A DNA stretch of 64,000 bases from an uncultured Candidatus Saccharibacteria bacterium (GCA_964574495.1 CAZNNT010000001.1:5194-69193); one strand, 5' to 3'. Positions 24,914-51,808 are shown, counted from the first letter of the stretch. Notes: a model not told the origin generated them from the sequence alone. Numbers and translations: made by a program.

Positions 24914-24924
24914 AATATAAATAA

Positions 24925-25683: not shown

Positions 25684-25689
25684 AAATAA

Positions 25690-26231: not shown

Positions 26232-26269
26232 ACACCCGTGATAAAAACGGGTGTTCCTTTTTTTATTTT
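26232..26269 (-). terminator. Rho-independent terminator (bidirectional)
   Basis: ACACCCGT-GATAAAA-ACGGGTGT flanked by A6 upstream and TCCTTTTTTTATTTT downstream. Confidence 0.75.
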
Positions 26270-27270: not shown

Positions 27271-27423
27271 TTCTTCTCCTTTCCTGATGAAAAGAACTTT
27301 GAAAACTAGCGGCCTCGGTGGCCGCGAATCCCCAACAAACCTATCACAAAAGGCGGATTTTATCAATCAAAATCTTTAATATTTACGGATTACTGCTTAT
27401 TTGTTCATCCAGTTCCAAAATAA

Positions 27424-29375: not shown

Positions 29376-30182
29376 TTATATCGCGGTCCAGCCGCCGTCA
29401 ACTATGAGATTATGGCCGGTGACATATCGGGATTCGTCCGATAAAAGAAAAATCAGCGGCCCGCAAATTTCTTCGGGACGGGCAAAACGCCCCAGGGGCA
29501 CTCTTTTGGAAAAATTGCTCACGAACGCTTTATTTCGCATTCTTTGGTCTTCGTCAAAAAAAATCCCGCCGGGGCTCAAGGCGTTCACGCGGATATTGTG
29601 CCTGCCGAGAAGCGCGGCAAGATATCTCGTAAAATTGATAAGACCGCCTTTGTGAAAAGCGTAATATTCGGCGTTGGCTTCTTTCGCGCCGGGATAAATT
29701 GAGGGGTCGTGCGCCACCACGCCGTAAATGGAGCCGATCTTGACTATGACTCCGGATTTTTGTTTTTTCATTATTTTAGCCGCTTCGCGCGTCATTAAAA
29801 AATTTCCGTTGACATTGACGTCCGTCGCCTTTCTGAAATTGGCCAAACTTCGCGAGGTAAAACTTTCAGCCGTCGGACGATGCACCGCGTTATTCACCAG
29901 GCCGTCAAGGCGCTTAAATTTTTTGATGGCGGCGTCCAGACATTCTTTAACCGATTTTTCATCGGTTATATCAAGCTCGCGGGCAAATAAACGCCGGCTG
30001 TCCTTCGCGATTTTATTTTTCAGTTTTAGGCATCCGGCATAATCAAGGTCGGCCAGAATCACATTGGCTCCGGCATTATATAAAGCTCCGGCAAAATGGC
30101 TGCCGAGCATGCCCGACGCTCCGGTCAGCAGGATTGTTTTGCCGCCCAAACGATAATCAGACGAGATGCGTTTCATTTTCAA
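29376..30182 (-). CDS. Classical short-chain dehydrogenase/reductase (SDR)
   Basis: TGASGMLGSHFA cofactor motif, NNAV, and the catalytic YAFHKGG (YxxxK). Confidence 0.8.
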   Translation of the reverse strand: MKMKRISSDYRLGGKTILLTGASGMLGSHFAGALYNAGANVILADLDYAGCLKLKNKIAKDSRRLFARELDITDEKSVKECLDAAIKKFKRLDGLVNNAVHRPTAESFTSRSLANFRKATDVNVNGNFLMTREAAKIMKKQKSGVIVKIGSIYGVVAHDPSIYPGAKEANAEYYAFHKGGLINFTRYLAALLGRHNIRVNALSPGGIFFDEDQRMRNKAFVSNFSKRVPLGRFARPEEICGPLIFLLSDESRYVTGHNLIVDGGWTAI

Positions 30183-31209
30183 TTTCTTTTAATAGTTTTA
30201 AAATTTCTTTTTCCTTTAATTTTCTGGCGTGCTCCGAAGAAAAAACGCGGCTTGCGGTTTTAAGCGCCGAGCCGTAACCGCTCGGATGGCTATAGCCCCA
30301 AACCTCTTTTCGCGGAGTCAAAATATACATATCTTTGGTTTCCAAGACGCCGCGAACCTCGTGGTCGGCCAGCAATTGCTCGTGCTTTTTTTCTCCCGCG
30401 CGCAGTCCCATAATTTTGGTTTTAATTTCCGAGCGTTTTTTTCCCAAAACTCCGGAGTAATATTGAATTGCCGCGCTCACGAGATTTTTCAATTTAACCG
30501 CCGGCATTTTAAAAACGAAAATCTCCTGGCCCTTGGTTAAAACGGCCGCGCGCAAAACCAAACCGACCGCCTGCGGAATGGTCATTATAAATCTGGTCAT
30601 TTCCGGATTGGTTACGGTTACTGACGAACCCTGGATAATTTGATTTTTAATCAACGGGAGTATGCTTCCGGAAGAGCCCAAAACATTTCCGAAGCGCACG
30701 CAGGTATACTTTGTTTTTTTGTCGCCGCGGTAATAATAAGAATTTAAAATCAGTTTTTCGGCCATCAGTTTAGACGCGCCTAAAACACCTTCGGGATTTA
30801 CGGCTTTATCGGTGGAAATGGAAACAACTTTATCCACGTTAAATTCCCTCGCGACATCAATAACATTCTGGGTTCCTAAAATATTCGTGGCTACGGCCTC
30901 AAAAGGGTCGTTGTCGCATATGTCCACATGCTTCATGGCTGCCGCGTGAAAAACAATGTCTATGCCCTCCATGGCTAGACGCAAACGGTTTTTATCCCGA
31001 ATGTCGCCGACAATAAAACGGACGGGATGTTCTTGTTCAAATCCTATTTCCTGCCTGAATTTATGGTGTCCATACTCGCCCCTCGCAAAAACCCGTACGC
31101 TTCTGGGACCGAAAGGAATGAGTTGCCTGACGATCTCCGAGCCGATAGAGCCGGTGCCGCCGGTCACCAAAATTCTTTTATCCTTGAACTCTTTAATAAA
31201 ATCGTTCAT
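30157..31209 (-). CDS. UDP-N-acetylglucosamine 4,6-dehydratase-like (PseB/FlaA1/CapD/LegB family)
   Basis: ILVTGGTGSIGSEIV Rossmann motif and the STDKAVNP signature typical of the CapD/PseB polysaccharide-biosynthesis dehydratase family. 350 aa. Confidence 0.75.
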   Translation of the reverse strand: MNDFIKEFKDKRILVTGGTGSIGSEIVRQLIPFGPRSVRVFARGEYGHHKFRQEIGFEQEHPVRFIVGDIRDKNRLRLAMEGIDIVFHAAAMKHVDICDNDPFEAVATNILGTQNVIDVAREFNVDKVVSISTDKAVNPEGVLGASKLMAEKLILNSYYYRGDKKTKYTCVRFGNVLGSSGSILPLIKNQIIQGSSVTVTNPEMTRFIMTIPQAVGLVLRAAVLTKGQEIFVFKMPAVKLKNLVSAAIQYYSGVLGKKRSEIKTKIMGLRAGEKKHEQLLADHEVRGVLETKDMYILTPRKEVWGYSHPSGYGSALKTASRVFSSEHARKLKEKEILKLLKEIENETHLV

Positions 31210-31739: not shown

Positions 31740-31772
31740 TATCACGCCTCGGCGATTTGTTGCCGGGGTTTT

Positions 31773-32891
31773 TTATGTGCTATTTTTTACCATTTCGGCC
31801 AATCTCTGGCAAATATATTCAATATCCGATTTTTCAAGGCCGATATAAAAAGGCAGGGCGATTGATGAAGAACTGATTGATTCCGAAACCGGAAAATCGC
31901 CCTCGCGAAACCCGAAGGCCTTACGATAAAAATCAAAAAGATGGATTGAGGGCAAATAGGGCTTGGTTGAAATGCCGAGACCGGCTAATTTTTTAATGAC
32001 TCCGTCGCGGTCCGCTCCCGTCTTAATTCTCGCGACATAAACGAACCAGGAATGGGTATTATCGGGATGAATTTCGGGAGCCGAAATCGTTTCGCCGTAT
32101 TTTCCCAATTCTTCCGAATACCATGAAGCGATTTTTCGCCGCTCCTCTATAATTTTGGGGAGTTTTTTAAGCTGAACGATTCCCAAAGCCGCGCTTAACT
32201 CATTCATCCGGTAGTTATAGCCGAGCCGTTCGTGGTCAAGCCATTGCATATTTTCGGAACGACCTTGATTACGCAAAGACCGACAAAGGGCGTCAATCTT
32301 TTGGTCATTGGTCGTAATGACGCCGCCTTCGGTGGTGGTCATTTGCTTATTGGGATAAAAAGAAAACACCGCGGCGTCGCCGAAAGTTCCGACTTTTTTA
32401 TTTTTATGTTCGGCCATAATGCTTTCACAAGCGTCTTCCACGACTACCAGAGCGTGTTTTTTGGCAAATGCCGTTATCGGGTCCATATCGCAGGATTGGC
32501 CGAAAATATGCACCGGCAAAATCGCTTTTGTTTTGGATGTTATTTTTTTCTCAACTTCTTTGGGGTCAATATTAAAAGTGAGCGGATTGATATCGGCAAA
32601 AACCGGCTTCGCGCCAACATATAAAATCGCGTTGGCTGACGCAATAAAAGAAAAAGGCGAGGTTATAACTTCGTCTCCCGCTTTTATGCCGGAGGCGATT
32701 AAAGCCAGGTGCAGCCCGGCCGTTCCGCTTGAAACCGCGCAGGCGTAATCGGAACCGATGAGTTTAGCGAATTTATTCTCAAACTCCTCTATTTTCGGGC
32801 CGATGCTTAAAACGCCGGAACGCAAAACTTCCAGAATAATTTTTTCTTCTTCTTCGTCAAAATGCGGTTTTGCCATTGGATATTTCGGCAT
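31773..32891 (-). CDS. DegT/DnrJ-family PLP-dependent aminotransferase (PseC/LegC/PglE-like nonulosonate-pathway transaminase)
   Basis: DegT-type N-terminus (KIILEVLRSGVLSIGPKIEEFENKFAKLIGSDYACAVSSGTAGLHLAL); 372 aa; operon position next to the PseB-like gene. Confidence 0.8.
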   Translation of the reverse strand: MPKYPMAKPHFDEEEEKIILEVLRSGVLSIGPKIEEFENKFAKLIGSDYACAVSSGTAGLHLALIASGIKAGDEVITSPFSFIASANAILYVGAKPVFADINPLTFNIDPKEVEKKITSKTKAILPVHIFGQSCDMDPITAFAKKHALVVVEDACESIMAEHKNKKVGTFGDAAVFSFYPNKQMTTTEGGVITTNDQKIDALCRSLRNQGRSENMQWLDHERLGYNYRMNELSAALGIVQLKKLPKIIEERRKIASWYSEELGKYGETISAPEIHPDNTHSWFVYVARIKTGADRDGVIKKLAGLGISTKPYLPSIHLFDFYRKAFGFREGDFPVSESISSSSIALPFYIGLEKSDIEYICQRLAEMVKNST

Positions 32892-32897: not shown

Positions 32898-34574
32898 TTA
32901 AAAAATATTTATATCGGATTCCGAGCGTTCTTTTCTTTGGCCGGCAGCAGCCGTTTTCTCCACCTCTTTTGACGGTATGAAAACCTCGTTCCAATAGCGG
33001 AAAAGATGCGCCGGCCGAAAGACCAACGGCCTAAAAGGACGATTAAAAAATAATTTTTGCAAAATCGCGTTGACGGGGTTAAACCCCAGAAAGCTCGCGG
33101 CCCCCGTCGTTCCTGAAAAACGGCAGTTTATTTCAAAAATTTTCGCGAGCCCGCCGGATTTTCTCAATTGAAAATTGCACGGCCCTTCAACCTTCAAGGC
33201 CTTGCCGACATTCGTCACAAGTTCCTCTATTTCTTTATCGCGAACCGCCACCGCTTTATAAGTATCGCCGTCCCGCAGCCACCGGTTCATCACAATTACT
33301 CCGTAGCAGACGCCGTTATCAAAAAACGACCCGCAGGTGTATTCCTGGTCTTTTTCGGAAAGATATTCCTGAACTATAAGGTCCGGATTTTTTGATAAAG
33401 CCCCGAGCAAAGCCGGTTCATCCGAGACCAGTTGAAAACCGATTGATCGCGCGCCGATTCTCGGCTTTAAAACCAAAGGGAAGCCGGCCTCCTTCAAAAA
33501 TTCTCCAGCCCTATCCGCCAAAGCCGAGCGGACATAAGGGAAATTATGCGATTTTAAAAACTCCGCTGTTTTCCATTTATCGTCTGATATGGCCACGGCT
33601 TCGAGATTGCCAACCACCACCTTGGCGCCCGATCGCATTTCAAAATCATCTCTATTTTGGGAGAGTATCTTTAACTCCGTGTCGGTGCCGATAAAAACGG
33701 CTTCCACTCCTTCGCCCTTGCAAATTTTTTCCAAAACGCCCAAATAAGTCGGGTCGTCCGGACCGGGAACTATGTAGGCGGCATCCGCCCGGTATAGCCC
33801 CGCGGCCAGATGATTCATATCGGTCGCGATAATTCTTGTTTTTACTTTAGAAAGTTTGAGCGATTTAATAATGCTCTGACCCACGCCGGCTCCCGCGCCC
33901 GTAACCAAGACCGTGATTAAACGGGTCAAATCAAAAGCCGAATCGCCTATTTCCCGCAAGTCATTATGGACATCGCTGCCAAAAGAAAAATTATCTATAT
34001 TGCCTTTGGCGATTTCTTCCGAGACCAGATTTTTGAGCGGTTCGGCCGCGTGCTTGGCGTTGAATTCAAATTTAACGCCGTTAGCCGCGCATAATTTATA
34101 AACCTCTTCTACATATTCCCGAGGGGGAGAGTAGTTATAAAAGCGTTTGCTCATGCTGAAAGGGTGACCCAAAATATCAATTTTCGGATGGCGCGCGAGC
34201 GCCTTGGTCAATTCGTATTCTTTTTCCAAAAGTTCTTCCCGACTCATTGATTTGATGCCTTCAAAATGATGAACGCTGCCGACAATGACTTCCGCGGCGT
34301 CCAAAATGTCGTCTCGTGTGTTTAAAGAGCCGTCGTCAAGTATTTTTACTTCGCACCCCGCTCTAACGCTAAAGCCGGGGTAATTTAGACGGAGTTTTTT
34401 GATTTCGGCGACATAGTCGGAAAACCAATCCGTATTTTTATCCACGTGGTCGGCAAAAATAAGATTCAGTTGATCGCGCAAATGATTATGCTCTAATAAT
34501 TCGGCGATGGAATGCCGGCCGTCGCTGTAAGAAGAATGCATATGATTTTCCTCAAAACGGGTCTTTATGGACAT
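32898..34574 (-). CDS. Fusion protein: N-terminal PHP-domain phosphoesterase + C-terminal ATP-grasp ligase
   Basis: The N-terminal HMHSSYSDG ... H/D-rich ladder (HVDK, HHFEG, GHPF, GSDVHND) is a PHP fold. Residues 230-558 have a pre-ATP-grasp Rossmann (VLVTGAGAGVGQS) and an ATP-grasp core (DKWKTAEFL, GFPLVLKPRIGARSIG, IVQEYL, EINCRFSGTTG). Confidence 0.7.
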   Translation of the reverse strand: MSIKTRFEENHMHSSYSDGRHSIAELLEHNHLRDQLNLIFADHVDKNTDWFSDYVAEIKKLRLNYPGFSVRAGCEVKILDDGSLNTRDDILDAAEVIVGSVHHFEGIKSMSREELLEKEYELTKALARHPKIDILGHPFSMSKRFYNYSPPREYVEEVYKLCAANGVKFEFNAKHAAEPLKNLVSEEIAKGNIDNFSFGSDVHNDLREIGDSAFDLTRLITVLVTGAGAGVGQSIIKSLKLSKVKTRIIATDMNHLAAGLYRADAAYIVPGPDDPTYLGVLEKICKGEGVEAVFIGTDTELKILSQNRDDFEMRSGAKVVVGNLEAVAISDDKWKTAEFLKSHNFPYVRSALADRAGEFLKEAGFPLVLKPRIGARSIGFQLVSDEPALLGALSKNPDLIVQEYLSEKDQEYTCGSFFDNGVCYGVIVMNRWLRDGDTYKAVAVRDKEIEELVTNVGKALKVEGPCNFQLRKSGGLAKIFEINCRFSGTTGAASFLGFNPVNAILQKLFFNRPFRPLVFRPAHLFRYWNEVFIPSKEVEKTAAAGQRKERSESDINIF

Positions 34575-34583: not shown

Positions 34584-35699
34584 CTATAGGTTTTTTAAAA
34601 ATTTTTCAATCGCTTTAGCGATGCCGTCGGCGACTCGTCCGCCGCGATAGACCGACGGCTTACGCCTTAAATTCAAACGAAAACGCGGCGATATCGCCTT
34701 ACGGACCCCTTTTAAAATGTCGTCCGGGTCATAATCGCTGAAAATCACGTTTGATCCGGCTTCGCGGTTTTGCTGGCGACGGCCGACATTCACAAAAGGC
34801 GTTTTTAAATAATCCCCCTCCATAAGCCCCGAACTGCTGTTGCCGATTAAAGCCGCGCTTTCTTTCATCAATCCCAGATAATCCGCGCGTTCAATATGCC
34901 GATAAACGCGGAAATGGGGATTTTTGCGAAGCGCCTCTATTTTTTTTATGAAATATCCGCTGCCTTCGTCGGAATTGGGATACAAAACTATTTTTTCGTC
35001 TTGAAAATCAAGGCGCCGAAGCGCGGATACGACCGAATTAATCTGTTTGAAGATCGGCGCGCCGTCAAGAATCGTCGGATGATGAACGACAAGAAACCAC
35101 CGTTTCGCGATATCAAGATGAAAACGCGAGGACAATTCTTTTCTTTTGGGCAAGGAATTCCGGTTAAGCCGGTCTAATCCGGCGGAACCGACTACTTTTA
35201 CTAAAGCGGGGTTGGCGCCAAGAGCAATTATATTTTTTTTGCTTTTGGCCGTCTGCACCAAATGGAGTTTAGAAAAAAGAGTGATGGCGTTACGCAAATA
35301 CTGATCCACCGTCGGCCCGGAAACATCTCCGCCGGAGACATGAATAACCGGAATTCCGAGATGCAGTCCCGCGACGGCCGCGGCAAAACCCTCGTCGCGA
35401 TCGGCAATAACCAAAAGCGCGTCAACTTTGCGGCGCTTAAGATAGCGCCCTATGCCGGCAATCTCCTTGCTTAGCGCTTCAAGTTGATTGTCAAATTCTC
35501 CGACCCGAACCACGGCGTCAACGCGCGCGTCTTTTTTCACCTCGTTTAAAGTCAACCCGAACCGACGCTGGGTATGCATGCCGGTCGCGAGTATTTTTAA
35601 ATTTATTTTTGGACTTTTAAGCAGGCGAAAAATAGTTGACCTGAAAAGCCCCCATTCCGCGCGCGTTCCGGTAACGAATAAAATTGTTTTTTTATTCAT
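34584..35699 (-). CDS. UDP-N-acetylglucosamine 2-epimerase family, hydrolysing type (NeuC/LegG-like)
   Basis: ILFVTGTRAEWGL, HVSGGDVSG and a GNSSSGL-type C-terminal motif are characteristic of Epimerase_2 (WecB/NeuC). 371 aa. Confidence 0.8.
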   Translation of the reverse strand: MNKKTILFVTGTRAEWGLFRSTIFRLLKSPKINLKILATGMHTQRRFGLTLNEVKKDARVDAVVRVGEFDNQLEALSKEIAGIGRYLKRRKVDALLVIADRDEGFAAAVAGLHLGIPVIHVSGGDVSGPTVDQYLRNAITLFSKLHLVQTAKSKKNIIALGANPALVKVVGSAGLDRLNRNSLPKRKELSSRFHLDIAKRWFLVVHHPTILDGAPIFKQINSVVSALRRLDFQDEKIVLYPNSDEGSGYFIKKIEALRKNPHFRVYRHIERADYLGLMKESAALIGNSSSGLMEGDYLKTPFVNVGRRQQNREAGSNVIFSDYDPDDILKGVRKAISPRFRLNLRRKPSVYRGGRVADGIAKAIEKFLKNL

Positions 35700-36747
35700 A
35701 GTGGCCTTTTTTTATAAGCGTCTCTGCAGGAATGTCAATTTTTGCCGCCTTGCCGATTATTTTTCGCAGGTATTTGGGTTCCAGACCCGTGCCCGGGCGT
35801 TTAATGGCCAGATTACTGCGGCTGAATATTTCGCCTTTTTTAATGTCGCGTAAAACAACAACGCTTTTTCTCGCAAGCGCTTTATAGGCCGATTCGCTTT
35901 TAGAAGGCCTTTTTTCGGCCGAACCCTTAAGTAAGGGAATCATTCTTATCTGCCTGACCATTTCTTTAAATTCTTCCGGCTCCAAAGACGCTTTATGGTC
36001 GGGTCCCGGCAGATTTTTGTTTAAAGTCAGATGCTTTTCAATAATTTCCGCGCCCATGGCCGCGGCCAAAACCGAAGCGAACGCGCCGAGCGTGTGGTCG
36101 GAATAACCGGCCAAAACCCCAAACTTTTTACGAAATGTCTCCAAAACCCGCAGATTGGCTTCCTCCGGCTTTGAGGGATAATCGGTGGTGCACTGCAAAA
36201 GAATAATTTTATTGTTTCCGGATTTTCTGATAGTTTTTACGGCTTCTTTAACTTCGGACATTGTTGCCATTCCGGTTGAAATTATCATCGGTTTTTTGAA
36301 GCGCGCGGCGTATTCCAAAACCGGCAGATTGGTCAGTTCCCCCGAGCCGAATTTAAAAGCCGTAGCGCCCAAAGCGCGGACTCTGTCTACGCTCGCGAAT
36401 CCGCCGTGGGGCGAGGAAAGAAAAATAATTTTTTCCCCGCGGCAATACTCCGCGACTTTTTTAAAATCCTCATCGCTTAATTCCAACCTTTTAATCATTT
36501 CCAGCTGATTCTCGCTTCTGCCGATATTCTTTTTTTGGTAAGAGGCCATTTTTCCCGCCGAAGTTACCACCTCTTCGGCTTTAAAATCCTGAAATTTTAC
36601 GGCATCCGCGCCGGCTTTTTTTGCCGCTTTAACGAGTTTCAGCGCCAGCGATAATTTACCGTTATGGTTTACTCCGGCTTCGGCTATCACGAAAACCGGC
36701 TGTCCCTGGCCGATGAACTTTCCGCCTATTTTGAGATTAGAAACCAT
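35692..36747 (-). CDS. N-acylneuraminate (nonulosonate) synthase, NeuB/LegI/PseI family with a C-terminal SAF domain
   Basis: VFVIAEAGVNHNGKLSLALKLVKAAKKAGADAVKFQ is the NeuB TIM-barrel N-terminus. The C-terminal ~60 aa are SAF/antifreeze-like (KKGEIFSRSNLAIKRPGTG). Confidence 0.85.
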   Translation of the reverse strand: MVSNLKIGGKFIGQGQPVFVIAEAGVNHNGKLSLALKLVKAAKKAGADAVKFQDFKAEEVVTSAGKMASYQKKNIGRSENQLEMIKRLELSDEDFKKVAEYCRGEKIIFLSSPHGGFASVDRVRALGATAFKFGSGELTNLPVLEYAARFKKPMIISTGMATMSEVKEAVKTIRKSGNNKIILLQCTTDYPSKPEEANLRVLETFRKKFGVLAGYSDHTLGAFASVLAAAMGAEIIEKHLTLNKNLPGPDHKASLEPEEFKEMVRQIRMIPLLKGSAEKRPSKSESAYKALARKSVVVLRDIKKGEIFSRSNLAIKRPGTGLEPKYLRKIIGKAAKIDIPAETLIKKGHYE

Positions 36748-37714
36748 GAAAATATGCCCTCTTTAAAGCTAAAGCGTTTTTTAAGTCCGAAGCGGATTCT
36801 TCCAAATTACTGTACCCCTTTTTCTCGCGCGTTTTTTTTATAAAAAACGCGAGTTCTTTGCGGTACATATCATTGCCTCCGGCTTTGATTTTAAAAATCT
36901 TTGTTCTCTTGTCGGTATGAAGTTTTATTTCATTATCTTCACTGCCTCGCCGCAGAATCTTCTCCCAGATTAGCGTCCCGCGGCTCCCCAAAATCTCGCA
37001 GTATCTTTTTCCCGGAACCTGAAAATAATCCTGATGAACCGAAATTATTTTGCCCTTTTCGGAAACAAAAAGACCTTCAGCCATGTCTTCGGATTTAATT
37101 TTCAGGTCTGAAATATTTCCGGAAAATCCTTTAACGAACCGCAATTTTTCTCCGAGAAGCCAGGCGGGATAATTTATCTCGTGAATTAAATCCAAAGTTA
37201 CGCCTCCGCCTTTTTTGGAGTCGCCGGAATAGCTTTTTCGGTAATCCCCCTTTCTCCAAGTTCTCAAATCCTTTCCGGCCGAAACGCGCATGGAAAGTAT
37301 GACGCTGATTTTTTTTTGCTTGATCATTTTTTTCAAAAATACGAGCGGCTTAAAAAATTGGAGGCAGTAAGCCACGAAAAACACCGGCTTTCGCTTTTTA
37401 ATTTCTTTTCGTATTTTGGCGATGTCTTTTAAAGAATGGGATATCGGTTTTTCCACGAAAATGCCCGCGGGATTATGACGGAGGCAGCGCAAAATCGTCG
37501 CGGCGTGCTTGTGAGTTTCGTTGGTTATGAAAAAAATATCCGGGCCGGCGGCGTAAAATTTTTTTTCCGAAGAAAAAAACCGGATATTCTTATCCGAACT
37601 TTTCACATCCTTTCTTTTGGTCAGCACGTTAAGGATTGAGCGCGGGAAAAGTTCGCGGATGTTGGCCGCGTGCCTCTGGCCGATTGAACCGTAACCGATA
37701 AGCCCCATGTTCAT
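36737..37714 (-). CDS. Gfo/Idh/MocA-family NAD(P)-dependent oxidoreductase
   Basis: MNMGLIGYGSIGQRHAANI Rossmann N-terminus and an EKP motif (FVEKPIS). Confidence 0.7.
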   Translation of the reverse strand: MNMGLIGYGSIGQRHAANIRELFPRSILNVLTKRKDVKSSDKNIRFFSSEKKFYAAGPDIFFITNETHKHAATILRCLRHNPAGIFVEKPISHSLKDIAKIRKEIKKRKPVFFVAYCLQFFKPLVFLKKMIKQKKISVILSMRVSAGKDLRTWRKGDYRKSYSGDSKKGGGVTLDLIHEINYPAWLLGEKLRFVKGFSGNISDLKIKSEDMAEGLFVSEKGKIISVHQDYFQVPGKRYCEILGSRGTLIWEKILRRGSEDNEIKLHTDKRTKIFKIKAGGNDMYRKELAFFIKKTREKKGYSNLEESASDLKNALALKRAYFHGF

Positions 37715-37718: not shown

Positions 37719-38453
37719 TTATTTTAAGTTCTTAATTCTATTTTTTATAACCCCTTTCTTTTTGTATAAAATTTCGGCCAGCGCCCAGTCCTCCGGCGCG
37801 TCCAAATCCACCGACCTCCATTTATCGCAAACCACGGCTTTGGTTTTTTTGGTCAAAACCGTTTTTTCTTTCAGAAGCGCGGATGTTTTAACAATGTAGA
37901 CAAAACAGCCGTTGAGGAGATAAGCGACATTCCAATCCTGAATGTTGGACGACTTGAATTTAACCTTATTTGCTAAAATGATATTTTTATTTTTATCCAG
38001 CCAATAAAGCCGGGGGTGGGTTGGAGCTACAGTTAAAACCGTCGTGGCGTCGGTTCGTTTCATCAAATCCCACGAGGCCTCAATGTCTCTATTTTCGCGA
38101 AGGGGCGAGGTGGTCTGCAAAATTACAATATGAGTCGGCTCATATTTTTCATCTTTTTTTAGACGTTTTAACAGAAACACTATGGCGTCAATCACCTGCG
38201 CCTTATCGCCCGCTAAACTTTTCGGCCTTAAATACGGAACTTCGGCGCCGTATTTTTTGGAAATGGAGGCGATTTTGGGCGAGTCGGTATCAACCACCAC
38301 GCGGTCAATCCATGGAATTTTTTTGGCCTGCAAAATCGTGTAAGCAATCAGCGGTTTGCCCAGAAAATTTCTTATGTTTTTATTGCGGATTCTTTTTGAA
38401 CCGGCTCTGGCGGGAATTACGGCTAAAACCGTTTTATTTTTCTTAATTTTCAT
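37719..38453 (-). CDS. Acylneuraminate cytidylyltransferase (CMP-nonulosonate synthetase, NeuA/LegF/PseF family)
   Basis: AVIPARAGSKRIRNKNIRNFLGKPLIAYTI is the canonical CTP_transf_3 N-terminus. 244 aa. Confidence 0.85.
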   Translation of the reverse strand: MKIKKNKTVLAVIPARAGSKRIRNKNIRNFLGKPLIAYTILQAKKIPWIDRVVVDTDSPKIASISKKYGAEVPYLRPKSLAGDKAQVIDAIVFLLKRLKKDEKYEPTHIVILQTTSPLRENRDIEASWDLMKRTDATTVLTVAPTHPRLYWLDKNKNIILANKVKFKSSNIQDWNVAYLLNGCFVYIVKTSALLKEKTVLTKKTKAVVCDKWRSVDLDAPEDWALAEILYKKKGVIKNRIKNLK

Positions 38454-38458: not shown

Positions 38459-39763
38459 TTAAACCAGGCCTTTGAGCGGCGTTTGATTTTCGCCGGGATC
38501 TTCGCCTGCCGGACCGCCGTTAGACACTACTTTTTTCAACCGCCATAAATCGTCTTCTCCCTTTTTCCAAACATGGGGCATTCTGTATTTATCCATAATT
38601 TTCCAGAAATGCTCTTCGCTGATTCCCAGATAATCCAAAAAATTCTGAAAATATTTTTTAGGAAATTCGTGGTCGTATCTATGCACCAGCGAAACCGCCT
38701 CTTCCCTTGTGATGTGGCCGCATCTGATTTCACTGCAGGCCTCGCGGGTAGCCCGCCCGTAGCCGAATTTAATATAGGCCAAGAGCCAATGGAACGGGTC
38801 CAATTGGTCGTCAATGCTGCAGTGCTTGGTATAAGTGCCTTCGGTACGTTCGGTGTTGGCTTCAAATCCGGTGTGTTTTGAAGCGTAGTAAAAATTTTCC
38901 TGCGGCACCCAGAGTTTATAGTAAGACCACCAGTGCATCTGCAAATCAAGTTTTTTAATTTCATCAAGCGCCGGCGGACGGTAAAAATCAAACTGATTAT
39001 CTTTAAGCTCGGAAGCCGAAAAAATTCCCATTTTAAAACCTTCCGCGAGCAAAACATCCACTCCGGCTCCTTTAAAATAAAGCTCGTCCCAATCCTCGGG
39101 CGATTCATAGGGTTTGTTTTCGTTTTTAAACGACCCGCCGTATTCAATCTCGCCGTTTTCGCCGTAAAAAATCAGGGGGATTTTAAAGCGATGGGCCATC
39201 TGAAAAGCCAGCGCTTTTTGCCCGAAAGTGAACGGCTCCCACGGATCGCCCTTCAATTCAAAAGCCACGCGGGCAAGTTTGCGATGCAAAATTCCGTTCG
39301 GCCAAACGAGCACTCCGTCAAGCCCGCTCTGAATAAAATTAAAATAATTCTGCCAGCCGATATCGGTATAAATAAACGGCGCCCAGGTTACGGCTAAAGG
39401 ATGCATTCCGCGGGCTTTCAATTGATGCGTTACCAAAGCGCTGTCTTTTCCCGCGCTGCCCGGAACAATGACGTCAAAACCGCCGTTTTTAGACCGGTGT
39501 TTGTCCAGAAGCGCTTCCAATTCTTTTTCCCGTTTAGCCCAATCAATTACTCCGCCGAATTTTTTTTCGGCGTATTTGCAGGCGTTGCAGATGCCGTCGG
39601 CGTCAAACTCGGTTCTGGGACGCTGATTGGATATGACGCATTTTTTGCAAAATAAAATTTTTTGAGGCAGTAACTTCAGCTGCCGGTCCTTGGTCTTAAA
39701 TTCATACTGCCGATATTTTGTTTCATCTATGTTTAATTTAGGAAATTTATATTTCATGACCAA
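38459..39763 (-). CDS. N-acetyl sugar amidotransferase (PP-loop ATPase; PseA/WbpG/LfnA family)
   Basis: PP-loop-like VPGSAGKDS, an N-terminal Cys cluster (CKKC ... CNAC) and ~430 aa are typical of the LPS/flagellin-glycan amidotransferase family that makes acetamidino groups. Confidence 0.7.
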   Translation of the reverse strand: MVMKYKFPKLNIDETKYRQYEFKTKDRQLKLLPQKILFCKKCVISNQRPRTEFDADGICNACKYAEKKFGGVIDWAKREKELEALLDKHRSKNGGFDVIVPGSAGKDSALVTHQLKARGMHPLAVTWAPFIYTDIGWQNYFNFIQSGLDGVLVWPNGILHRKLARVAFELKGDPWEPFTFGQKALAFQMAHRFKIPLIFYGENGEIEYGGSFKNENKPYESPEDWDELYFKGAGVDVLLAEGFKMGIFSASELKDNQFDFYRPPALDEIKKLDLQMHWWSYYKLWVPQENFYYASKHTGFEANTERTEGTYTKHCSIDDQLDPFHWLLAYIKFGYGRATREACSEIRCGHITREEAVSLVHRYDHEFPKKYFQNFLDYLGISEEHFWKIMDKYRMPHVWKKGEDDLWRLKKVVSNGGPAGEDPGENQTPLKGLV

Positions 39764-39774: not shown

Positions 39775-41307
39775 TCATAAATTACGCTCTTTGCAAAACG
39801 CTTCCAGAATTTTTAATCCGGCTTGTCCGCTTCGCTCCGGATGAAACTGGGTCGCAAAAATATTGTCTTTTTTTACCGCGGAGCAGAATCTTTGGCCTCC
39901 GTATTCCGAAACGGCGGCCACCACGCTTTGGTCTTCCGGTTCCGGATAATAAGAGTGCACGAAATAGACCATTTCATCGCCGCCGGCGTTTTGGCGCTTC
40001 GGATTTTTCAAATAATTCCATCCTATATGAGGCAGTTTATATCTGTTTAAATTAACTTCGGACGGTTTTTTAAAAGATACGACCCGGCCGCCAATCAAAT
40101 CAAGGCCTTTGTGCAAGCCGAACTCTTCGCTTTCCGAAAAAAGAAGCTGCATACCCAGACATATCCCTAAAAACGGTTTGCCGGATTTAACTTCTTCCAC
40201 AAGCGGCTCAATAAGACCCATATTTTTCAGGGCGTTCATTCCGTGCTCATACGCTCCGACTCCGGGCAAAACCAGACATTTGACATTTTTAAATTCCGAA
40301 GGACTTTCAATTACTTTTACGCTTTTTCCCAGACGCTCAAACGCTTTCAAAACGCTTTTTACATTATTAAGTTTGTAATTAATCACGCCGATGTCGCGCT
40401 TTTGGCCGATTTTTAACAAGTCCTCGCGGCTTTCCTTGCCTATGTCAATTCCCAAATTTTCGTCTCCCAGCTGCCTTAAAGTGAATCGATTATAGTCAAA
40501 GATGCCGGCCGCGGACGCCGACCCCGACTTTTTTTTCGCGTCCGAAACATTCCTCACCTTAATTCCGGCTTTCAAAAGCGCGGTTTTGACATCATCAATA
40601 TCCGCTTCTTTATAGTGAAAAATGGAGGCCGCGGCCACCGCGTCGGCGTCAGTCGTCTTGAAACAATCAACAAAATCCTCCGGTTTAGCCGCGCCGCCCG
40701 AAGCAATGACCGGAATTGAAACGGCTCCAGACACTTCTTTTACAAGCTCCAGATCAAGCCCGTTTTTAGCGCCTTCCATATCAACCGAGGTCAATAAAAT
40801 CTCGCCCGCGCCCAATTCTTCGCCTCTTTTGGCCCACGAAACGGCATTCAGGCCGGTTGTTTGCCGGCCGTTATCGGTGTAGGCCTCCCATTTGCCCGGC
40901 GATATTTTTTTGGCTTCAATTGAAAGCACGACGCACTGCGACCCGAAACGCTCCGAGGCCTCCTTAATCAATCGCGGATTTTTGGTGGCGGCCGTGTTTA
41001 CGGCCACCTTGTCGGCTCCGGCTCGCAATAAATTTTCTATGTCTTCAATCGTACGAACTCCGCCGCCGGCGGTAAAAGGAATAAATATTTTTTCGGTCGC
41101 GCGCTCCACAATATTTAAAAGATTCTTACGGCCGTATAAACTGGCGACGGTATCTAAATAAATCAATTCATCAGCGCCCTGCAAATAATATTCCTCGGCT
41201 ATGTCTTCCGGCCTGCCCATCACGCGCAAACATTCAAACTGGACGCCCTTAACCACATTGGGGCCCTTAATATCCAGTCGGGCAATGACGCGTATGTTTT
41301 TGTCCAT
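39775..41307 (-). CDS. Fused imidazole-glycerol-phosphate-synthase-like protein: HisF-like cyclase (N-terminal) + HisH-like glutamine amidotransferase (C-terminal); WbuZ/WbuY-type partner of the amidotransferase
   Basis: N-half: ARLDIKGPNVVKGVQFE ... FTAGGGVRTIEDIENLLRAGADKVAVNTAA (HisF barrel). C-half: class I GATase with GICLGMQLL (catalytic Cys) and FHPERS (His). Confidence 0.8.
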   Translation of the reverse strand: MDKNIRVIARLDIKGPNVVKGVQFECLRVMGRPEDIAEEYYLQGADELIYLDTVASLYGRKNLLNIVERATEKIFIPFTAGGGVRTIEDIENLLRAGADKVAVNTAATKNPRLIKEASERFGSQCVVLSIEAKKISPGKWEAYTDNGRQTTGLNAVSWAKRGEELGAGEILLTSVDMEGAKNGLDLELVKEVSGAVSIPVIASGGAAKPEDFVDCFKTTDADAVAAASIFHYKEADIDDVKTALLKAGIKVRNVSDAKKKSGSASAAGIFDYNRFTLRQLGDENLGIDIGKESREDLLKIGQKRDIGVINYKLNNVKSVLKAFERLGKSVKVIESPSEFKNVKCLVLPGVGAYEHGMNALKNMGLIEPLVEEVKSGKPFLGICLGMQLLFSESEEFGLHKGLDLIGGRVVSFKKPSEVNLNRYKLPHIGWNYLKNPKRQNAGGDEMVYFVHSYYPEPEDQSVVAAVSEYGGQRFCSAVKKDNIFATQFHPERSGQAGLKILEAFCKERNL

Positions 41308-51807: not shown

Positions 51808-51808
51808 T

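What the first reader, a model, noticed from the sequence alone, without database searches (positions are those of the whole stretch)
32898..34574. PHP phosphoesterase fused to an ATP-grasp ligase at the position normally held by the pathway N-acetyltransferase
The 558-aa protein joins an HMHSSYSDG-type PHP metal-dependent phosphoesterase to a complete ATP-grasp ligase (pre-ATP-grasp Rossmann, KPRIGARSIG, EINCRFSGTTG). It sits between the pathway aminotransferase and NeuC, where PseH/LegH-type N-acetyltransferases usually are, and no acetyltransferase is present. An ATP-grasp could ligate a carboxylate such as an amino acid or hydroxy acid to the 4-amino group of the sugar nucleotide. The product would be an N-acyl nonulosonate variant with an acyl group other than acetyl. 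The PHP domain's substrate is unclear.
Basis: inference. Interest (0 to 1): 0.6.

Follow-up and report, generated by a model that had tools for sequence, protein, structure and literature searches.

The report
Phosphatase–ATP-grasp ligase replacing sugar N-acetyltransferase
A two-domain enzyme (metal phosphatase fused to an ATP-dependent amide ligase) sits in a sialic-acid-like sugar pathway of an uncultured bacterium exactly where the usual N-acetyltransferase should be, and comparative genomics indicates it puts an unusual, probably phosphate-derived acyl group (best guess glyceroyl) on the sugar instead of acetyl.

Summary
A 558-aa ORF (32898-34574, minus strand) joins a catalytically complete PHP phosphoesterase to a complete ATP-grasp ligase. 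It lies between the DegT aminotransferase and NeuC in a legionaminic-type nonulosonate operon. No Hexapep or GNAT acetyltransferase was detected among the window's ORFs of 110 aa or more.

The fusion is common in CPR bacteria, with conserved synteny. Its ATP-grasp belongs to a large uncharacterised family (about 293 clusters at 50% identity). In 70 reference loci from many phyla, this family sits in 4-amino-4,6-dideoxy-HexNAc modules (PglC-type transferase, DegT, 4,6-dehydratase). Hexapeptide acetyltransferases are rare there. In 80% of loci a phosphoesterase is nearby, either PHP or the unrelated Metallophos. One archaeal locus fuses the PHP to NeuC instead.

The closest documented precedent is Neisseria PglB2, where an ATP-grasp domain replaces the acetyltransferase domain and yields a 4-glyceramido sugar.

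Most likely mechanism (inferred): the ATP-grasp ligates a non-acetyl acid to the 4-amino group, and the PHP removes a phosphate from that acyl unit. 3-phosphoglycerate giving N-glyceroyl is the best guess.

Homology to PglB2 itself could not be tested. Verdict: new variant of a known kind, moderately interesting.

The parts
33930..34574 (-). PHP metal-dependent phosphoesterase domain of the fusion (residues 1 to about 215)
   Evidence: Pfam PHP scores 39.2 bits, above the 26.4 cutoff. All metal ligands are conserved in 57 fusions and in 20 stand-alone partners. A profile of this domain hits PolX-type PHP domains, YcdX and histidinol-phosphate phosphatase.
32898..33929 (-). ATP-grasp carboxylate-amine ligase domain of the fusion (residues about 216-558, plus stop codon)
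   Evidence: NCBIfam NF009402 scores 325.8 bits, above the 218 cutoff. Pfam finds PylC-like_N, ATP-grasp_3 and ATPgrasp_Ter. The AF2 model has pLDDT 93.4. The best fold match is 2pn1, with TM-score 0.88 normalised to the target.
31773..32891 (-). DegT-family sugar 4-aminotransferase (PseC/LegC-like). It makes the 4-amino group proposed as the acceptor.
   Evidence: Pfam DegT_DnrJ_EryC1, E 5e-122. NCBIfam PseC scores 328 bits and LegC 293 bits, both below their cutoffs.
30157..31209 (-). UDP-HexNAc 4,6-dehydratase (PseB/PglF family, short form)
   Evidence: Pfam Polysacc_synt_2, E 1.5e-97. NCBIfam PseB scores 283 bits, below its cutoff.
34584..35699 (-). NeuC-type hydrolysing UDP-sugar 2-epimerase
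   Evidence: NCBIfam NeuC_NnaA scores 321 bits, above the 236 cutoff.
35692..36747 (-). NeuB-type nonulosonate synthase
   Evidence: NCBIfam NeuB_NnaB scores 427 bits, above the 400 cutoff.
36737..37714 (-). GFO/IDH/MocA oxidoreductase of the nonulosonate block
   Evidence: Pfam. The same position is conserved in L002 and L008.
37719..38453 (-). CMP-nonulosonate synthetase (cytidylyltransferase)
   Evidence: Pfam CTP_transf_3. PseF-like at 168 bits, below its cutoff.
38459..39763 (-). WbuX-type N-acetyl sugar amidotransferase (acetamidino formation)
   Evidence: NCBIfam TIGR03573 scores 318 bits, above the 203 cutoff.
39775..41307 (-). HisF-HisH fusion, the ammonia-delivering partner of WbuX
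   Evidence: Pfam His_biosynth plus GATase. The same fusion is conserved in L002 and L008.
41323..43101 (-). NodU/CmcH-type carbamoyltransferase at the head of the operon. It may decorate the product.
   Evidence: Pfam Carbam_trans_N and Carbam_trans_C. The same family also lies next to the ATP-grasp module in three loci annotated as Bacteroidetes (L026, L028, L030).
29376..30182 (-). PtmA-like short-chain dehydrogenase downstream of the dehydratase
   Evidence: Pfam adh_short_C2. NCBIfam FlagModPtmA scores 138 bits, below its cutoff. An SDR is present in the syntenic block of L002.
26263..27366 (-). NAD-dependent epimerase/dehydratase-family SDR. It is a candidate, not established, counterpart of the roughly 300-aa SDR that follows the ATP-grasp in 51 of 55 loci.
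   Evidence: About 31% identity and a best score of 114 bits to the trio SDRs. The median score within that SDR family is 98 bits. It is also GalE/LegB-like, below cutoffs. Inconclusive.

Best explanation
The gene encodes a bifunctional enzyme that takes the place of the PglD/LegH/PseH-type N-acetyltransferase in a legionaminic-type nonulosonate pathway.

Shown:
- Both halves have complete catalytic motifs.
- The gene is embedded in the operon between the 4-aminotransferase and NeuC.
- The same ATP-grasp family, nearly always with a phosphoesterase, is conserved in 4-amino-4,6-dideoxy-HexNAc modules across many phyla.

Inferred:
- After the 4,6-dehydratase and DegT make UDP-4-amino-4,6-dideoxy-HexNAc, the ATP-grasp half activates a carboxylic acid as an acyl-phosphate. 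It then ligates that acid to the 4-amino group, which becomes N7 of the nonulosonate.
- The PHP half removes a phosphate ester from the acyl unit. It may act on the ligated product, or on the acid just before ligation.
- The most likely acid is 3- (or 2-) phosphoglycerate, giving an N-glyceroyl group. A phospho-amino acid such as phosphoserine, giving an aminoacyl group, is the main alternative.
- NeuC, NeuB and the cytidylyltransferase then process the N-acyl sugar to a CMP-nonulosonate. WbuX/HisFH convert the 5-acetamido group to acetamidino.

Rough sub-probabilities:
- Amide ligation at the 4-amino group: about 0.6.
- Phosphate removal from the acyl moiety or its precursor: about 0.45.
- The acyl group being glyceroyl: about 0.25.
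For: (a) Catalytic completeness. Both halves carry complete catalytic motifs, invariant across 57 fusions. The AF2 model has pLDDT 93.4 and pTM 0.91.

(b) Operon position and missing acetyltransferase. The gene is tightly packed between DegT and NeuC. No acetyltransferase domain was found in the 64-kb window.

(c) Conserved synteny. Loci annotated as Minisyncoccia, Saccharibacteria and Patescibacteria share the order HisFH-WbuX-CMP-transferase-(GFO)-(SDR)-NeuB-NeuC-fusion-(two methyltransferases in L082)-DegT-dehydratase. In the Peregrinibacteria/Peribacteria loci the fusion also lies among nonulosonate genes, directly after NeuC in L001.

(d) The ATP-grasp family occurs in two kinds of locus. 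One has PglC-type transferases, which need the UDP-sugar intact. The other has NeuC/NeuB. Counts out of 70 loci: Bac_transf 33, DegT 33, dehydratase 21, NeuB 9. Within the bacillosamine and legionaminic routes (established pathway knowledge), the step after amination that both share is N-acylation of the 4-amine.

(e) Acetyltransferases are scarce. Only 5 of 150 scanned neighbours are hexapeptide transferases.

(f) A phosphoesterase is a near-constant partner, with non-homologous displacement. PHP occurs in 33 loci and Metallophos in 23, together 56 of 70. PHP is found fused to the ATP-grasp (CPR, Nanoarchaeota), as a separate gene, or fused to NeuC in locus L036.

(g) Literature precedents:
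- Neisseria PglB2 has an ATP-grasp domain instead of the acetyltransferase domain and gives 4-glyceramido-2-acetamido-trideoxyhexose (PMC11130364, PMC6959607). An extra CDS lies between pglB2 and pglC (PMC7643975, PMC3338715).
- Natural PglC-type transferase~ATP-grasp fusions of this same family exist (P0139-P0141, P0166, P0167, P0266, P0466).
- C. jejuni Cj1438C (an ATP-grasp) ligates serinol-P or ethanolamine-P, and the phosphatase Cj1435 then removes the phosphate (PMC11800379).
- From established knowledge, mannosylglycerate and glucosylglycerate are made from 3-phosphoglycerate followed by a dedicated phosphatase.

(h) N-glyceroyl nonulosonates exist (Tannerella Pse5Am7Gra), and their genetic basis is stated to be unknown (PMC5378307).
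Against: - No member of this ATP-grasp family has been characterised biochemically. The acid substrate is a guess.
- Sequence homology to Neisseria PglB2 could not be tested. Its sequence was not retrievable, and searches returned only environmental proteins.
- The roughly 300-aa SDR that follows the ATP-grasp in 51 of 55 loci has no assigned role in this scheme. It is not adjacent in the window, where there is only an inconclusive candidate.
- In some relatives the ATP-grasp is paired with FemAB-like and PglD-like enzymes (L086 and cyanobacterial loci). This suggests aminoacyl rather than glyceroyl chemistry, at least in those loci.
- DegT lies within +/-6 ORFs in only 33 of 70 loci. Part of this is due to short contigs and long operons.
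- 14 loci show no phosphoesterase nearby.
- An acetyltransferase elsewhere in the genome is not excluded.
Confidence: 0.5

Rival explanations
1. Same ligase logic, but the acyl group is an amino acid. The ATP-grasp aminoacylates the 4-amine, for example with serine or threonine supplied as the O-phospho-amino acid, or with alanine or glycine. PHP acts as a phospho-amino-acid / phospho-aminoacyl phosphatase. The product is a 7-N-aminoacyl nonulosonate.
For: FemAB-like (PF13480) enzymes accompany or are fused to this ATP-grasp family in several loci. L017/L019/L020 carry one downstream. In L086 a FemAB-like~PglD-like protein follows the transferase~ATP-grasp fusion. P0101, P0191 and P0201 are ATP-grasp+PF13480 fusions. 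That pattern fits extension and capping of an aminoacyl group. The nearest PHP relatives include histidinol-phosphate phosphatases, which act on an amino-alcohol phosphate. From my own knowledge, alanyl and glutamyl legionaminic-acid derivatives are chemically known.
Against: The window and the syntenic CPR loci contain no FemAB-like gene. The only genetically linked product of an ATP-grasp in this position is glyceramido (PglB2; PMC11130364). HisJ-family scores are far below cutoff: 28.7 against 90.2.
Confidence: 0.17
2. N-acetylation of the 4-amine is done by an acetyltransferase encoded elsewhere in the genome. The fusion performs a different, later decoration, for example re-acylation after de-N-acetylation or modification of another glycan component.
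For: Only 64 kb of the genome was seen. PIG-L de-N-acetylases occur next to the module in 5 of 150 scanned neighbours, and in Dongshaea (L004) beside complete Pse genes. Hexapeptide transferases do co-occur in a few loci.
Against: The gene sits precisely between the aminotransferase and NeuC, in the same order in four species-level CPR loci (L002/L010, L008, L082 and the window). No acetyltransferase or PIG-L appears in those blocks or in the window. In most loci with a PglC-type transferase, the module is the only candidate for the N4 substituent.
Confidence: 0.13
3. The ATP-grasp uses a one- or two-carbon acid, as PurT, PurK and CPS do (formate, acetate or bicarbonate). It makes an ordinary N-formyl/N-acetyl group or a carbamate without acyl-CoA or folate. 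PHP has an accessory role unrelated to the acyl group.
For: After 2pn1, the best fold matches are CPS, PurK, biotin carboxylase and PurT, which all activate bicarbonate or formate. From my own knowledge, CPR bacteria often lack folate and CoA biosynthesis. N-formyl nonulosonates are known.
Against: Those fold matches are generic for ATP-grasp enzymes, at 13-20% identity. Sequence scores to PurT/PurK/CPS models are negligible. The family is abundant in Rhizobiales, Sphingomonadales and Bacteroidota, which have acetyl-CoA and folate. This reading leaves the near-universal phosphoesterase partner, and its PHP/Metallophos displacement, unexplained.
Confidence: 0.08
4. Reversed polarity, as in C. 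jejuni Cj1438C/Cj1435. The ATP-grasp activates a sugar carboxylate (a uronic acid, or C1 of the nonulosonate) and couples it to a phosphorylated amine such as ethanolamine-P or serinol-P. PHP then removes the phosphate.
For: This gives a clean explanation of an ATP-grasp plus phosphatase pair, with direct biochemical precedent (PMC11800379).
Against: The Pfam scan at E<=1 returned no family other than PHP, PylC-like_N, ATPgrasp_Ter, ATP-grasp_3 and three weak chance-level hits, so no TupA-like match. No UDP-sugar 6-dehydrogenase family is among the 25 commonest neighbour families. The conserved partners are the aminotransferase, dehydratase and PglC-type transferase of a 6-deoxy amino sugar, which has no carboxylate. 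From my own knowledge, amidating C1 of a nonulosonate would probably interfere with CMP activation.
Confidence: 0.07

Closest known systems
Neisseria PglB2 (phosphoglycosyltransferase + ATP-grasp), which makes glyceramido-acetamido-trideoxyhexose (GATDH)
   Same: In both cases an ATP-grasp occupies the place of the acetyltransferase that acts on UDP-2-acetamido-4-amino-2,4,6-trideoxyhexose. The result is a non-acetyl (glyceroyl) N4 substituent (PMC11130364, PMC6959607). The neighbouring aminotransferase and dehydratase are the same. An extra CDS is inserted after the ATP-grasp (PMC7643975, PMC3338715). This parallels the module order seen here: transferase, (phosphoesterase), ATP-grasp, SDR/phosphoesterase, DegT, dehydratase. 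Environmental proteins of the window's ATP-grasp family have the PglB2 architecture (P0139, P0166, P0167, P0266, P0466).
   Different: Here the fusion partner is a PHP phosphoesterase, not the PglC-type transferase. The sugar is then passed to NeuC/NeuB to become a nonulosonate rather than being transferred to undecaprenyl phosphate. Sequence homology to Neisseria PglB2 itself was not tested. PglB2 has genetic and mass-spectrometric evidence but, as far as I could find, no biochemical characterisation.
C. jejuni HS:2 capsule enzymes Cj1438C (ATP-grasp amidoligase) and Cj1435 (phosphatase)
   Same: Both follow a two-step logic: ATP-grasp amide formation with a phosphorylated building block, then removal of the phosphate by a dedicated phosphatase encoded alongside (PMC11800379).
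   Different: Cj1438C is described as a TupA-like ATP-grasp. The window protein matches the PylC-like_N, ATPgrasp_Ter and ATP-grasp_3 models instead. In C. jejuni the sugar supplies the carboxylate and the phospho-compound is the amine. The phosphatase there is a HAD enzyme, not PHP or Metallophos.
PglD / LegH / PseH N-acetyltransferases of the bacillosamine, legionaminic and pseudaminic pathways
   Same: Same pathway position and same presumed acceptor, the 4-amino group of UDP- or GDP-4-amino-4,6-dideoxy-HexNAc. From my own knowledge, the canonical gene order is dehydratase, aminotransferase, acetyltransferase, NeuC-like (for example lgaA-lgaD).
   Different: The fold and chemistry are unrelated. 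Those enzymes are acyl-CoA-dependent left-handed beta-helix or GNAT proteins. This one is an ATP-dependent carboxylate-amine ligase with a phosphoesterase attached. No Hexapep or GNAT domain is present.
PDB 2pn1 (Exiguobacterium sibiricum 'carbamoylphosphate synthase large subunit (split gene in MJ)') and NCBIfam PRK12767.1-1
   Same: 2pn1 is the closest solved structure and sequence relative of the ATP-grasp half. phmmer gives E 5e-24, and Foldseek gives TM-score 0.88 (target-normalised) at 25% identity. The window protein passes the NCBIfam cutoff for PRK12767.1-1.
   Different: 2pn1 is a structural-genomics entry with a homology-derived name and no PHP domain. I found no functional characterisation for it.

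Membership tests
ATP-grasp superfamily (ATP-dependent carboxylate-amine/thiol ligases) | Pre-ATP-grasp Rossmann-like domain plus ATP-grasp fold, recognised by family models | tested here: met
   PylC-like_N 60 bits, ATPgrasp_Ter 41 bits and ATP-grasp_3 30.5 bits, all above their cutoffs. Foldseek probability is 1.00 for many ATP-grasp structures.
ATP-grasp superfamily (ATP-dependent carboxylate-amine/thiol ligases) | Conserved ATP- and Mg-binding residues (Lys in the central domain; the E-x-N Mg ligands) | tested here: met
   K333, K370, E411, E481, N483 and R485 are invariant in 57 fusions, and the equivalent positions are invariant in 24 stand-alone relatives.
NCBIfam NF009402 (PRK12767.1-1, 'carbamoyl phosphate synthase-like protein') | Whole-protein score above the curated cutoff | tested here: met
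   325.8 bits against a cutoff of 218, covering profile positions 3-328 of 329. The name comes from homology, not from a demonstrated function.
PglB2-type ATP-grasp N-acyl ligase (Neisseria GATDH pathway) | ATP-grasp present instead of an acetyltransferase within a dehydratase/aminotransferase pathway for a 2-acetamido-4-amino-2,4,6-trideoxyhexose | tested here: met
   Window gene order and absence of acetyltransferase domains. The same holds in relatives.
PglB2-type ATP-grasp N-acyl ligase (Neisseria GATDH pathway) | Sequence homology to the ATP-grasp domain of Neisseria PglB2 (e.g. NMV_1981/1982) | not tested
   The PglB2 sequence could not be retrieved. Two searches designed to pull it out returned only environmental proteins. 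Only the same-architecture transferase~ATP-grasp fusions were shown to belong to the window's family.
PglB2-type ATP-grasp N-acyl ligase (Neisseria GATDH pathway) | Fusion or adjacency to a PglC-type phosphoglycosyltransferase | tested here: not met
   No Bac_transf domain was found among the window's ORFs of 110 aa or more, and none lies next to the gene. The feature is met by 33 of 70 relatives.
PglB2-type ATP-grasp N-acyl ligase (Neisseria GATDH pathway) | Product carries an N-glyceroyl group | not testable with these tools
   Requires glycan mass spectrometry or NMR, or an enzyme assay.
PHP (polymerase and histidinol phosphatase) metal-dependent phosphoesterases | Pfam PHP score above cutoff, and the full set of metal ligands (HxH, D, H, E, H, H, DxH) | tested here: met
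   39.2 bits against a cutoff of 26.4. H11/H13, D18, H43, E75, H102, H137 and D201/H203 are present and conserved.
HisJ-family histidinol-phosphate phosphatase | Score above the TIGR01856 cutoff | tested here: not met
   28.7 bits against a cutoff of 90.2. The 'histidinol-phosphatase' label on the Sinorhizobium partner is a generic annotation.
PurK / PurT / carbamoyl-phosphate synthetase / biotin carboxylase | Score above the family cutoffs | tested here: not met
   CPSaseII_lrg scores 21 bits against a cutoff of 1027. Biotin carboxylase PRK08654 scores 13.8 against 739. No PurK or PurT model appears among the 25 best of 34 NCBIfam hits shown. Similarity is at the fold level only, at 13-20% identity.
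RimK / LysX ribosomal- or carrier-protein-modifying ATP-grasp ligases | Score above the family cutoffs, and a non-glycan context | tested here: not met
   rimK_fam scores 26 bits against a cutoff of 143. LysX scores 22.8 against 275.6. The context is glycan biosynthesis in the 70 loci examined.
PglD / LegH / PseH N-acetyltransferases | Hexapeptide-repeat (LbH) or GNAT acetyl-CoA-dependent domain | tested here: not met
   No such Pfam domain at E<=1.
TupA-like ATP-grasp amidoligases (Cj1438C type) | Match to a TupA-like ATP-grasp model | tested here: not met
   The seven Pfam families listed at E<=1 are PylC-like_N, ATPgrasp_Ter, PHP, ATP-grasp_3, Myosin_VII_N, CPSase_L_D2 and DUF3517. None is TupA-like.

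The most novel reading that the evidence does not exclude
CPR bacteria and DPANN archaea make a legionaminic-type nonulosonate whose N7 carries a glyceroyl (or other hydroxy- or amino-acyl) group. The group is installed by a single bifunctional enzyme through a 'ligate a phospho-acid, then dephosphorylate' mechanism.

The same ATP-grasp + phosphoesterase (+SDR) module would be the long-missing enzymology behind several things. These include the N-glyceroyl and related non-acetyl groups on bacillosamine-type sugars and nonulosonates in many phyla, Neisseria GATDH together with its unexplained co-inserted ORF, and possibly the Gra group of Tannerella-type Pse/Leg derivatives.
Probability: 0.25. 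Interest if true: 0.7.

Novelty: new variant of a known kind. Interest (0 to 1): 0.55.

Why it matters
Nonulosonic acids and bacillosamine-type sugars carry many N-acyl groups: glyceroyl, hydroxybutyryl, alanyl, glutamyl and others. These groups shape antigenicity and host or phage recognition. The enzymes that install the non-acetyl groups are largely unknown. For Tannerella Pse5Am7Gra, the literature calls the genetic basis 'a major challenge' (PMC5378307).

This locus, and the module it belongs to, give a concrete and widely distributed candidate. The module spans about 293 sequence clusters and is found in CPR, DPANN, Rhizobiales (including Sinorhizobium pSymB), Sphingomonadales, Bacteroidota, Cyanobacteria and other groups.

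It leads to a mechanistic prediction that recombinant protein can test: ATP-dependent ligation of a phosphorylated acid, followed by dephosphorylation.

It would also show that ultra-small CPR and DPANN cells invest in elaborately modified sialic-acid-like surface sugars. The module could be used in chemoenzymatic synthesis of N-acyl-modified nonulosonates.

Tried and rejected
(1) Retrieving Neisseria PglB2 to test direct homology. I tried a chimeric query of a Polaromonas PglC-type transferase plus ATP-grasp. I then tried a profile of natural transferase~ATP-grasp fusions and cluster look-ups. All returned only environmental sequences. The original papers (PMC1976187, PMC3719539) are not held.

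(2) Using known E. coli O-antigen chemistry to identify the acyl group. There is no E. coli counterpart of the Enterobacteriaceae-MAG gene.

(3) Literature searches combining ATP-grasp with legionaminic, pseudaminic or nonulosonic gave only incidental hits. 'Carbamoyl phosphate synthase-like' + NeuB gave none, and nonulosonic + Patescibacteria gave none.

(4) AFDB50 fold search: the library was unavailable. Model coordinates are not exposed, so the inter-domain geometry and the acid pocket could not be analysed.

(5) PurK/PurT/CPS/RimK paralogue. Rejected on family scores and on context.

(6) PHP as a UDP-sugar pyrophosphatase. Rejected by inference. The module works both with PglC-type transferases, which need the UDP-sugar intact, and with NeuC, which removes UDP itself.

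(7) PHP as a nonulosonate-9-phosphate phosphatase. Rejected by inference. The 4,6-dehydratase implies a 9-deoxy product, and most loci carrying the module lack NeuB.

(8) Assigning the window SDR at 26263-27366 as the third member of the trio. Inconclusive.

(9) Finding the source record of the window through the identical protein P0001. Not on record.


Full report
**1. The observation**

The window contains one uninterrupted 558-aa ORF at 32898..34574 on the minus strand.
- Pfam places a PHP domain at residues 11-173, a PylC-like pre-ATP-grasp domain at 223-313, and ATP-grasp_3 / ATPgrasp_Ter at 331-507.
- NCBIfam NF009402 ('PRK12767.1-1, carbamoyl phosphate synthase-like protein') matches residues 220-538 with 325.8 bits against a cutoff of 218.
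- The gene starts 9 nt after the stop codon of a NeuC-type epimerase and ends 6 nt before the start of a DegT aminotransferase.

The identical database protein is annotated from Met12 (P0001, 547 aa). That start would delete His11 of the HxH motif. F7 and N10 are at least 90% conserved across homologues and H11 is the consensus residue. The 558-aa form is therefore preferred.

**2. The operon**

All genes below are on the minus strand and are transcribed from high to low coordinates:
- carbamoyltransferase (41323-43101)
- HisF-HisH fusion (39775-41307)
- WbuX-type N-acetyl-sugar amidotransferase (38459-39763; 318 bits, cutoff 203)
- cytidylyltransferase (37719-38453)
- GFO/IDH/MocA oxidoreductase (36737-37714)
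- NeuB (35692-36747; 427 bits, cutoff 400)
- NeuC (34584-35699; 321 bits, cutoff 236)
- the fusion (32898-34574)
- DegT (31773-32891)
- a 560-bp gap
- PseB/PglF-family 4,6-dehydratase (30157-31209)
- PtmA-like SDR (29376-30182)

This is a legionaminic-type pathway (NeuC-dependent) for a 5,7-diamino nonulosonate, with an acetamidino-forming system attached. The stereochemistry cannot be decided, because the PseB, PseC, LegC and PseF models all score below their cutoffs.

I scanned every ORF of 110 aa or more in the 64-kb window against Pfam. None has a hexapeptide-repeat or GNAT acetyltransferase domain.

**3. Both halves look catalytically active**

Evidence from 57 full-length fusions sharing 34-63% identity:
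- The PHP metal ligands H13, D18, H43, E75, H102, H137, D201 and H203 are invariant, and H11 is the consensus residue.
- The ATP-grasp core residues K333, K370, E411, E481, N483 and R485 are invariant.

The AlphaFold2 model built on that alignment is very confident as a whole (pLDDT 93.4, pTM 0.91). This suggests that the two domains pack in a defined way.

The nearest solved structure of the ATP-grasp half is 2pn1, a structural-genomics protein named only by homology. The other fold matches are generic ATP-grasp enzymes: CPS, PurK, biotin carboxylase, PylC and L-amino-acid ligases, at 13-20% identity.

A profile of the PHP half together with its stand-alone orthologues hits PolX-type PHP domains, YcdX and histidinol-phosphate phosphatases. 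It is a generic but complete phosphoesterase.

**4. Distribution of the fusion**

A homology search found about 80 clusters (at 90% identity) of fusions around 555 aa long, sharing 49-65% identity with the window protein. The names attached point to Peregrinibacteria/Peribacteria, Minisyncoccia, Gribaldobacteria and 'Patescibacteria'.

The exhaustive search of the 50%-identity library gives 293 clusters at E<=1e-30 for the family. About six of these are PHP fusions, and one of them is from Nanoarchaeota.

Synteny is conserved.
- Loci annotated as Minisyncoccia (L002/L003/L010), Saccharibacteria (L008) and Patescibacteria (L082) carry HisFH-WbuX-CMP-transferase-(GFO)-(SDR)-NeuB-NeuC-fusion-DegT-dehydratase.
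- In L082, two methyltransferase genes lie between the fusion and DegT.
- In the Peregrinibacteria and Peribacteria loci (L001, L006, L007) the fusion also lies among nonulosonate genes. In L001 it follows NeuC directly.
- A Staskawiczbacteria locus (L050) has the split form: NeuC, PHP, ATP-grasp, DegT.
- A Woesearchaeota locus (L036) has the PHP fused to NeuC instead, followed by a separate ATP-grasp. The PHP part is 27% identical to the window's PHP half (E 2e-16), and the ATP-grasp is 40% identical (E 4e-80).

**5. The wider family and its context**

Stand-alone ATP-grasps of about 335 aa, sharing 38-45% identity with the C-terminal half, occur in Rhizobiales, Sphingomonadales, Bacteroidota, Cyanobacteria, Chloroflexota, Myxococcota, Gemmatimonadota, gamma- and beta-proteobacteria, Firmicutes and archaea.

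I analysed the loci held at that point with labelled probes. Among the 70 loci with an intact ATP-grasp ORF, the following were found within +/-6 ORFs:

| Neighbour | Loci (of 70) |
|---|---|
| Any phosphoesterase | 56 (80%) |
| PHP | 33 |
| Metallophos | 23 |
| The same ~300-aa NAD-dependent SDR | 47 |
| PglC-type phosphoglycosyltransferase | 33 |
| DegT | 33 |
| PglF/PseB-type dehydratase | 21 |
| NeuB | 9 |

- The SDR lies immediately downstream of the ATP-grasp in 51 of 55 cases.
- The typical gene order is: transferase, phosphoesterase, ATP-grasp, SDR, (phosphoesterase), DegT, dehydratase.
- Where the gene directly upstream is the transferase (the Bacteroidota-type loci, including those annotated as Bacteroidetes), a Metallophos gene lies two genes downstream.
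- A Pfam census of 150 otherwise unlabelled neighbours found Bac_transf 26, GT4 about 22, Metallophos 20, PIG-L 5 and Hexapep only 5.
- The Sinorhizobium pSymB copy is annotated only as 'histidinol-phosphatase / ATP-grasp domain-containing protein / NAD(P)-dependent oxidoreductase'.

**6. What this implies**

The module occurs in two kinds of pathway. In one, the UDP-sugar is handed intact to a PglC-type transferase. In the other, NeuC removes the UDP and NeuB extends the sugar.

The two routes share the UDP-4-amino-4,6-dideoxy-HexNAc intermediate. Within the bacillosamine and legionaminic pathways (established pathway knowledge), the step after amination that both share is N-acylation of the 4-amine, normally done by PglD or LegH. 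The module sits where that enzyme would be, and acetyltransferases are rare there.

The same argument limits what the phosphoesterase can be acting on.
- It cannot be the UDP-sugar pyrophosphate, because PglC needs that bond intact.
- It cannot be a 9-phosphate, because the sugar is 6-deoxy and most loci with the module have no NeuB.
- By elimination, the target is the acyl unit or its precursor.

Two unrelated phosphoesterase folds substitute for each other. The PHP is found fused to either neighbouring enzyme. Both facts indicate that phosphate-ester hydrolysis is an integral step of the module.

**7. Precedents**

(a) Neisseria PglB2.
- The alternative allele PglB2 is described as 'ATP grasp/phosphoglycosyl-transferase'. 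It replaces the acetyltransferase/transferase PglB and produces 4-glyceramido-2-acetamido-2,4,6-trideoxyhexose (PMC11130364, PMC6959607, PMC10425976).
- pglB2 entered the locus together with an extra ORF of unknown function, located between it and the aminotransferase gene (PMC11130364, PMC3338715, PMC7643975).
- Vibrio has split pglBa/pglBb next to pglC and pglD (PMC10644004).
- Environmental proteins of the window's ATP-grasp family have exactly the PglB2 architecture (P0139-P0141, P0166, P0167, P0266, P0466). One of them is followed by the trio-type SDR (L088).
- I could not obtain a Neisseria sequence. Membership of PglB2 in this family is therefore inferred from architecture and synteny, not tested.

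(b) C. jejuni Cj1438C. This ATP-grasp amidates glucuronate with serinol phosphate or ethanolamine phosphate, and Cj1435 then removes the phosphate (PMC11800379). It is a demonstrated case of ligating a phosphorylated unit and then dephosphorylating it.

(c) From established knowledge, glycerate units in mannosylglycerate and glucosylglycerate are introduced as 3-phosphoglycerate and then dephosphorylated by a dedicated phosphatase.

(d) N-glyceroyl nonulosonates exist (Tannerella Pse5Am7Gra), and their genetic basis is stated to be unknown (PMC5378307).

**8. Most likely mechanism**

- The ATP-grasp half forms an acyl-phosphate from a non-acetyl carboxylic acid and transfers it to the 4-amino group of the UDP-sugar.
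- The PHP half hydrolyses a phosphate ester on that acyl unit, either before or after ligation.
- The best single guess for the acid is 3-phosphoglycerate, giving N-glyceroyl. This would yield a 7-N-glyceroyl-5-acetamidino legionaminic-type acid.
- The product might be decorated further by the methyltransferases and the carbamoyltransferase in the locus.

Shown: domain integrity, position in the operon, the conserved partnership, and the glycan context. Inferred: the acceptor, the order of steps, and the identity of the acid.

**9. Open problems**

- The conserved SDR has no role in this scheme. It may modify the acyl chain or the sugar. In the window only an inconclusive candidate exists, at 26263-27366.
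- Some relatives pair the ATP-grasp with FemAB-like and PglD-like enzymes. This suggests that in those loci the group is an amino acid that is then extended and capped. Acid specificity probably varies across the family.
- An acetyltransferase elsewhere in the genome cannot be excluded.

**10. Verdict**

Two corrections apply.
- The arrangement is not peculiar to nonulosonates. It is a widespread 4-amino-sugar module that was recruited into nonulosonate pathways mainly in CPR and DPANN.
- It has a genetic precedent in PglB2.

The new elements are the PHP fusion, the obligatory phosphoesterase partnership, and the nonulosonate context. I rate it a new variant of a known kind, with interest about 0.55.

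Noticed in passing
L036:7911-9764 (Woesearchaeota MAG JAGVYX010000037.1): A continuous 617-aa ORF joins NeuC (Epimerase_2, residues 26-360) to a PHP domain (396-537) of the same family as the window's PHP half. The ATP-grasp is the next, separate gene. This is an alternative fusion partner for the PHP. It could also be an assembly or frameshift artefact in a MAG.
   Followed up: partly
L086:5843-9308; L019:11928-12992; also proteins P0101, P0191, P0201: In some loci the same ATP-grasp family is followed by, or fused to, FemAB-like (PF13480) enzymes. In L086 the following gene encodes a FemAB-like~PglD-like (Hexapep) 559-aa protein. This suggests that an aminoacyl or peptidyl N-substituent is built on the amino sugar in those systems.
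   Followed up: partly
window 41323-43101 (-); L026, L028, L030: A NodU/CmcH-type carbamoyltransferase heads the window's operon. The same family lies directly upstream of the transferase/ATP-grasp module in three loci annotated as Bacteroidetes. It may O-carbamoylate the product or its acyl side chain.
   Followed up: no
window 27478-28638 (-); L082:10965-13050; L001:7608-8795; L004:13022-14155: Large methyltransferases (Methyltransf_23, some with a C-methyltransferase C-terminal domain) recur next to the fusion or ATP-grasp in the nonulosonate-type loci. In L082 two of them lie between the fusion and DegT. This recalls the di-O-methylglyceroyl pseudaminic acid of C. jejuni mentioned in PMC6321876.
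   Followed up: no
window 34542-34574: The identical database protein (P0001, 547 aa) is annotated from Met12, preceded by a GAGGA-like sequence. That start would remove His11 of the HxH metal motif. Residues upstream of Met12 are conserved in homologues, so the longer ORF is probably the correct one.
   Followed up: partly
alignment A5 (stand-alone PHP partners, e.g. L005:9255-10004, L011:9163-9957): In many stand-alone PHP partners, and in the L002 fusion, the first His of the HxH motif is replaced by Gln (for example 'LQVHT'). All other metal ligands are kept.
   Followed up: no
window 31210-31772: An unusually long 560-bp gap separates DegT from the dehydratase in an otherwise tightly packed operon. 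It holds a plus-strand 133-aa ORF (31332-31733) and a minus-strand 92-aa ORF, neither with a Pfam hit. There is one promoter-like site on the minus strand (31287-31259) and one terminator-like hairpin on the plus strand (31746-31769). Neither count exceeds what shuffled sequence gives.
   Followed up: partly
window 15394-26178 (-): A second sugar-modification block lies here. It contains a radical-SAM protein, three cytidylyltransferase-like proteins (one fused to a PfkB kinase domain), a GT2, a SIS-domain protein, an epimerase, a second DegT, and an E1 alpha/beta (transketolase-like) dehydrogenase pair. A Wzy_C/TPR protein is at 13085-15322.
   Followed up: no
window 50542-53918 (+): A third amino-sugar cassette: a C-methyltransferase with a zinc-binding N-terminal domain, a third DegT, and a GDP-mannose 4,6-dehydratase.
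   Followed up: no
window 48550-49251 (-) and 7922-8320 (-): An IS200-like Y1 transposase ORF sits at the edge of the glycan island. A tRNA gene at 7969-8039 (-) (64 bits) overlaps an ORF with a GIY-YIG domain hit, so one of the two calls may be spurious.
   Followed up: no
L090 (S. meliloti pSymB, CP073680.1, 752539-771492); L005: The PHP / ATP-grasp / SDR trio is conserved on Sinorhizobium pSymB-type replicons; 75 of the 78 matching plasmid records are Sinorhizobium. In the Ensifer aridi locus L005 it lies next to sulfate-activation genes, an AsnB-like amidotransferase, GT4 glycosyltransferases and a PglF-like dehydratase. The S. meliloti record additionally annotates a formyltransferase-like gene nearby. 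Sinorhizobium is a genetically tractable host for testing the module.
   Followed up: partly
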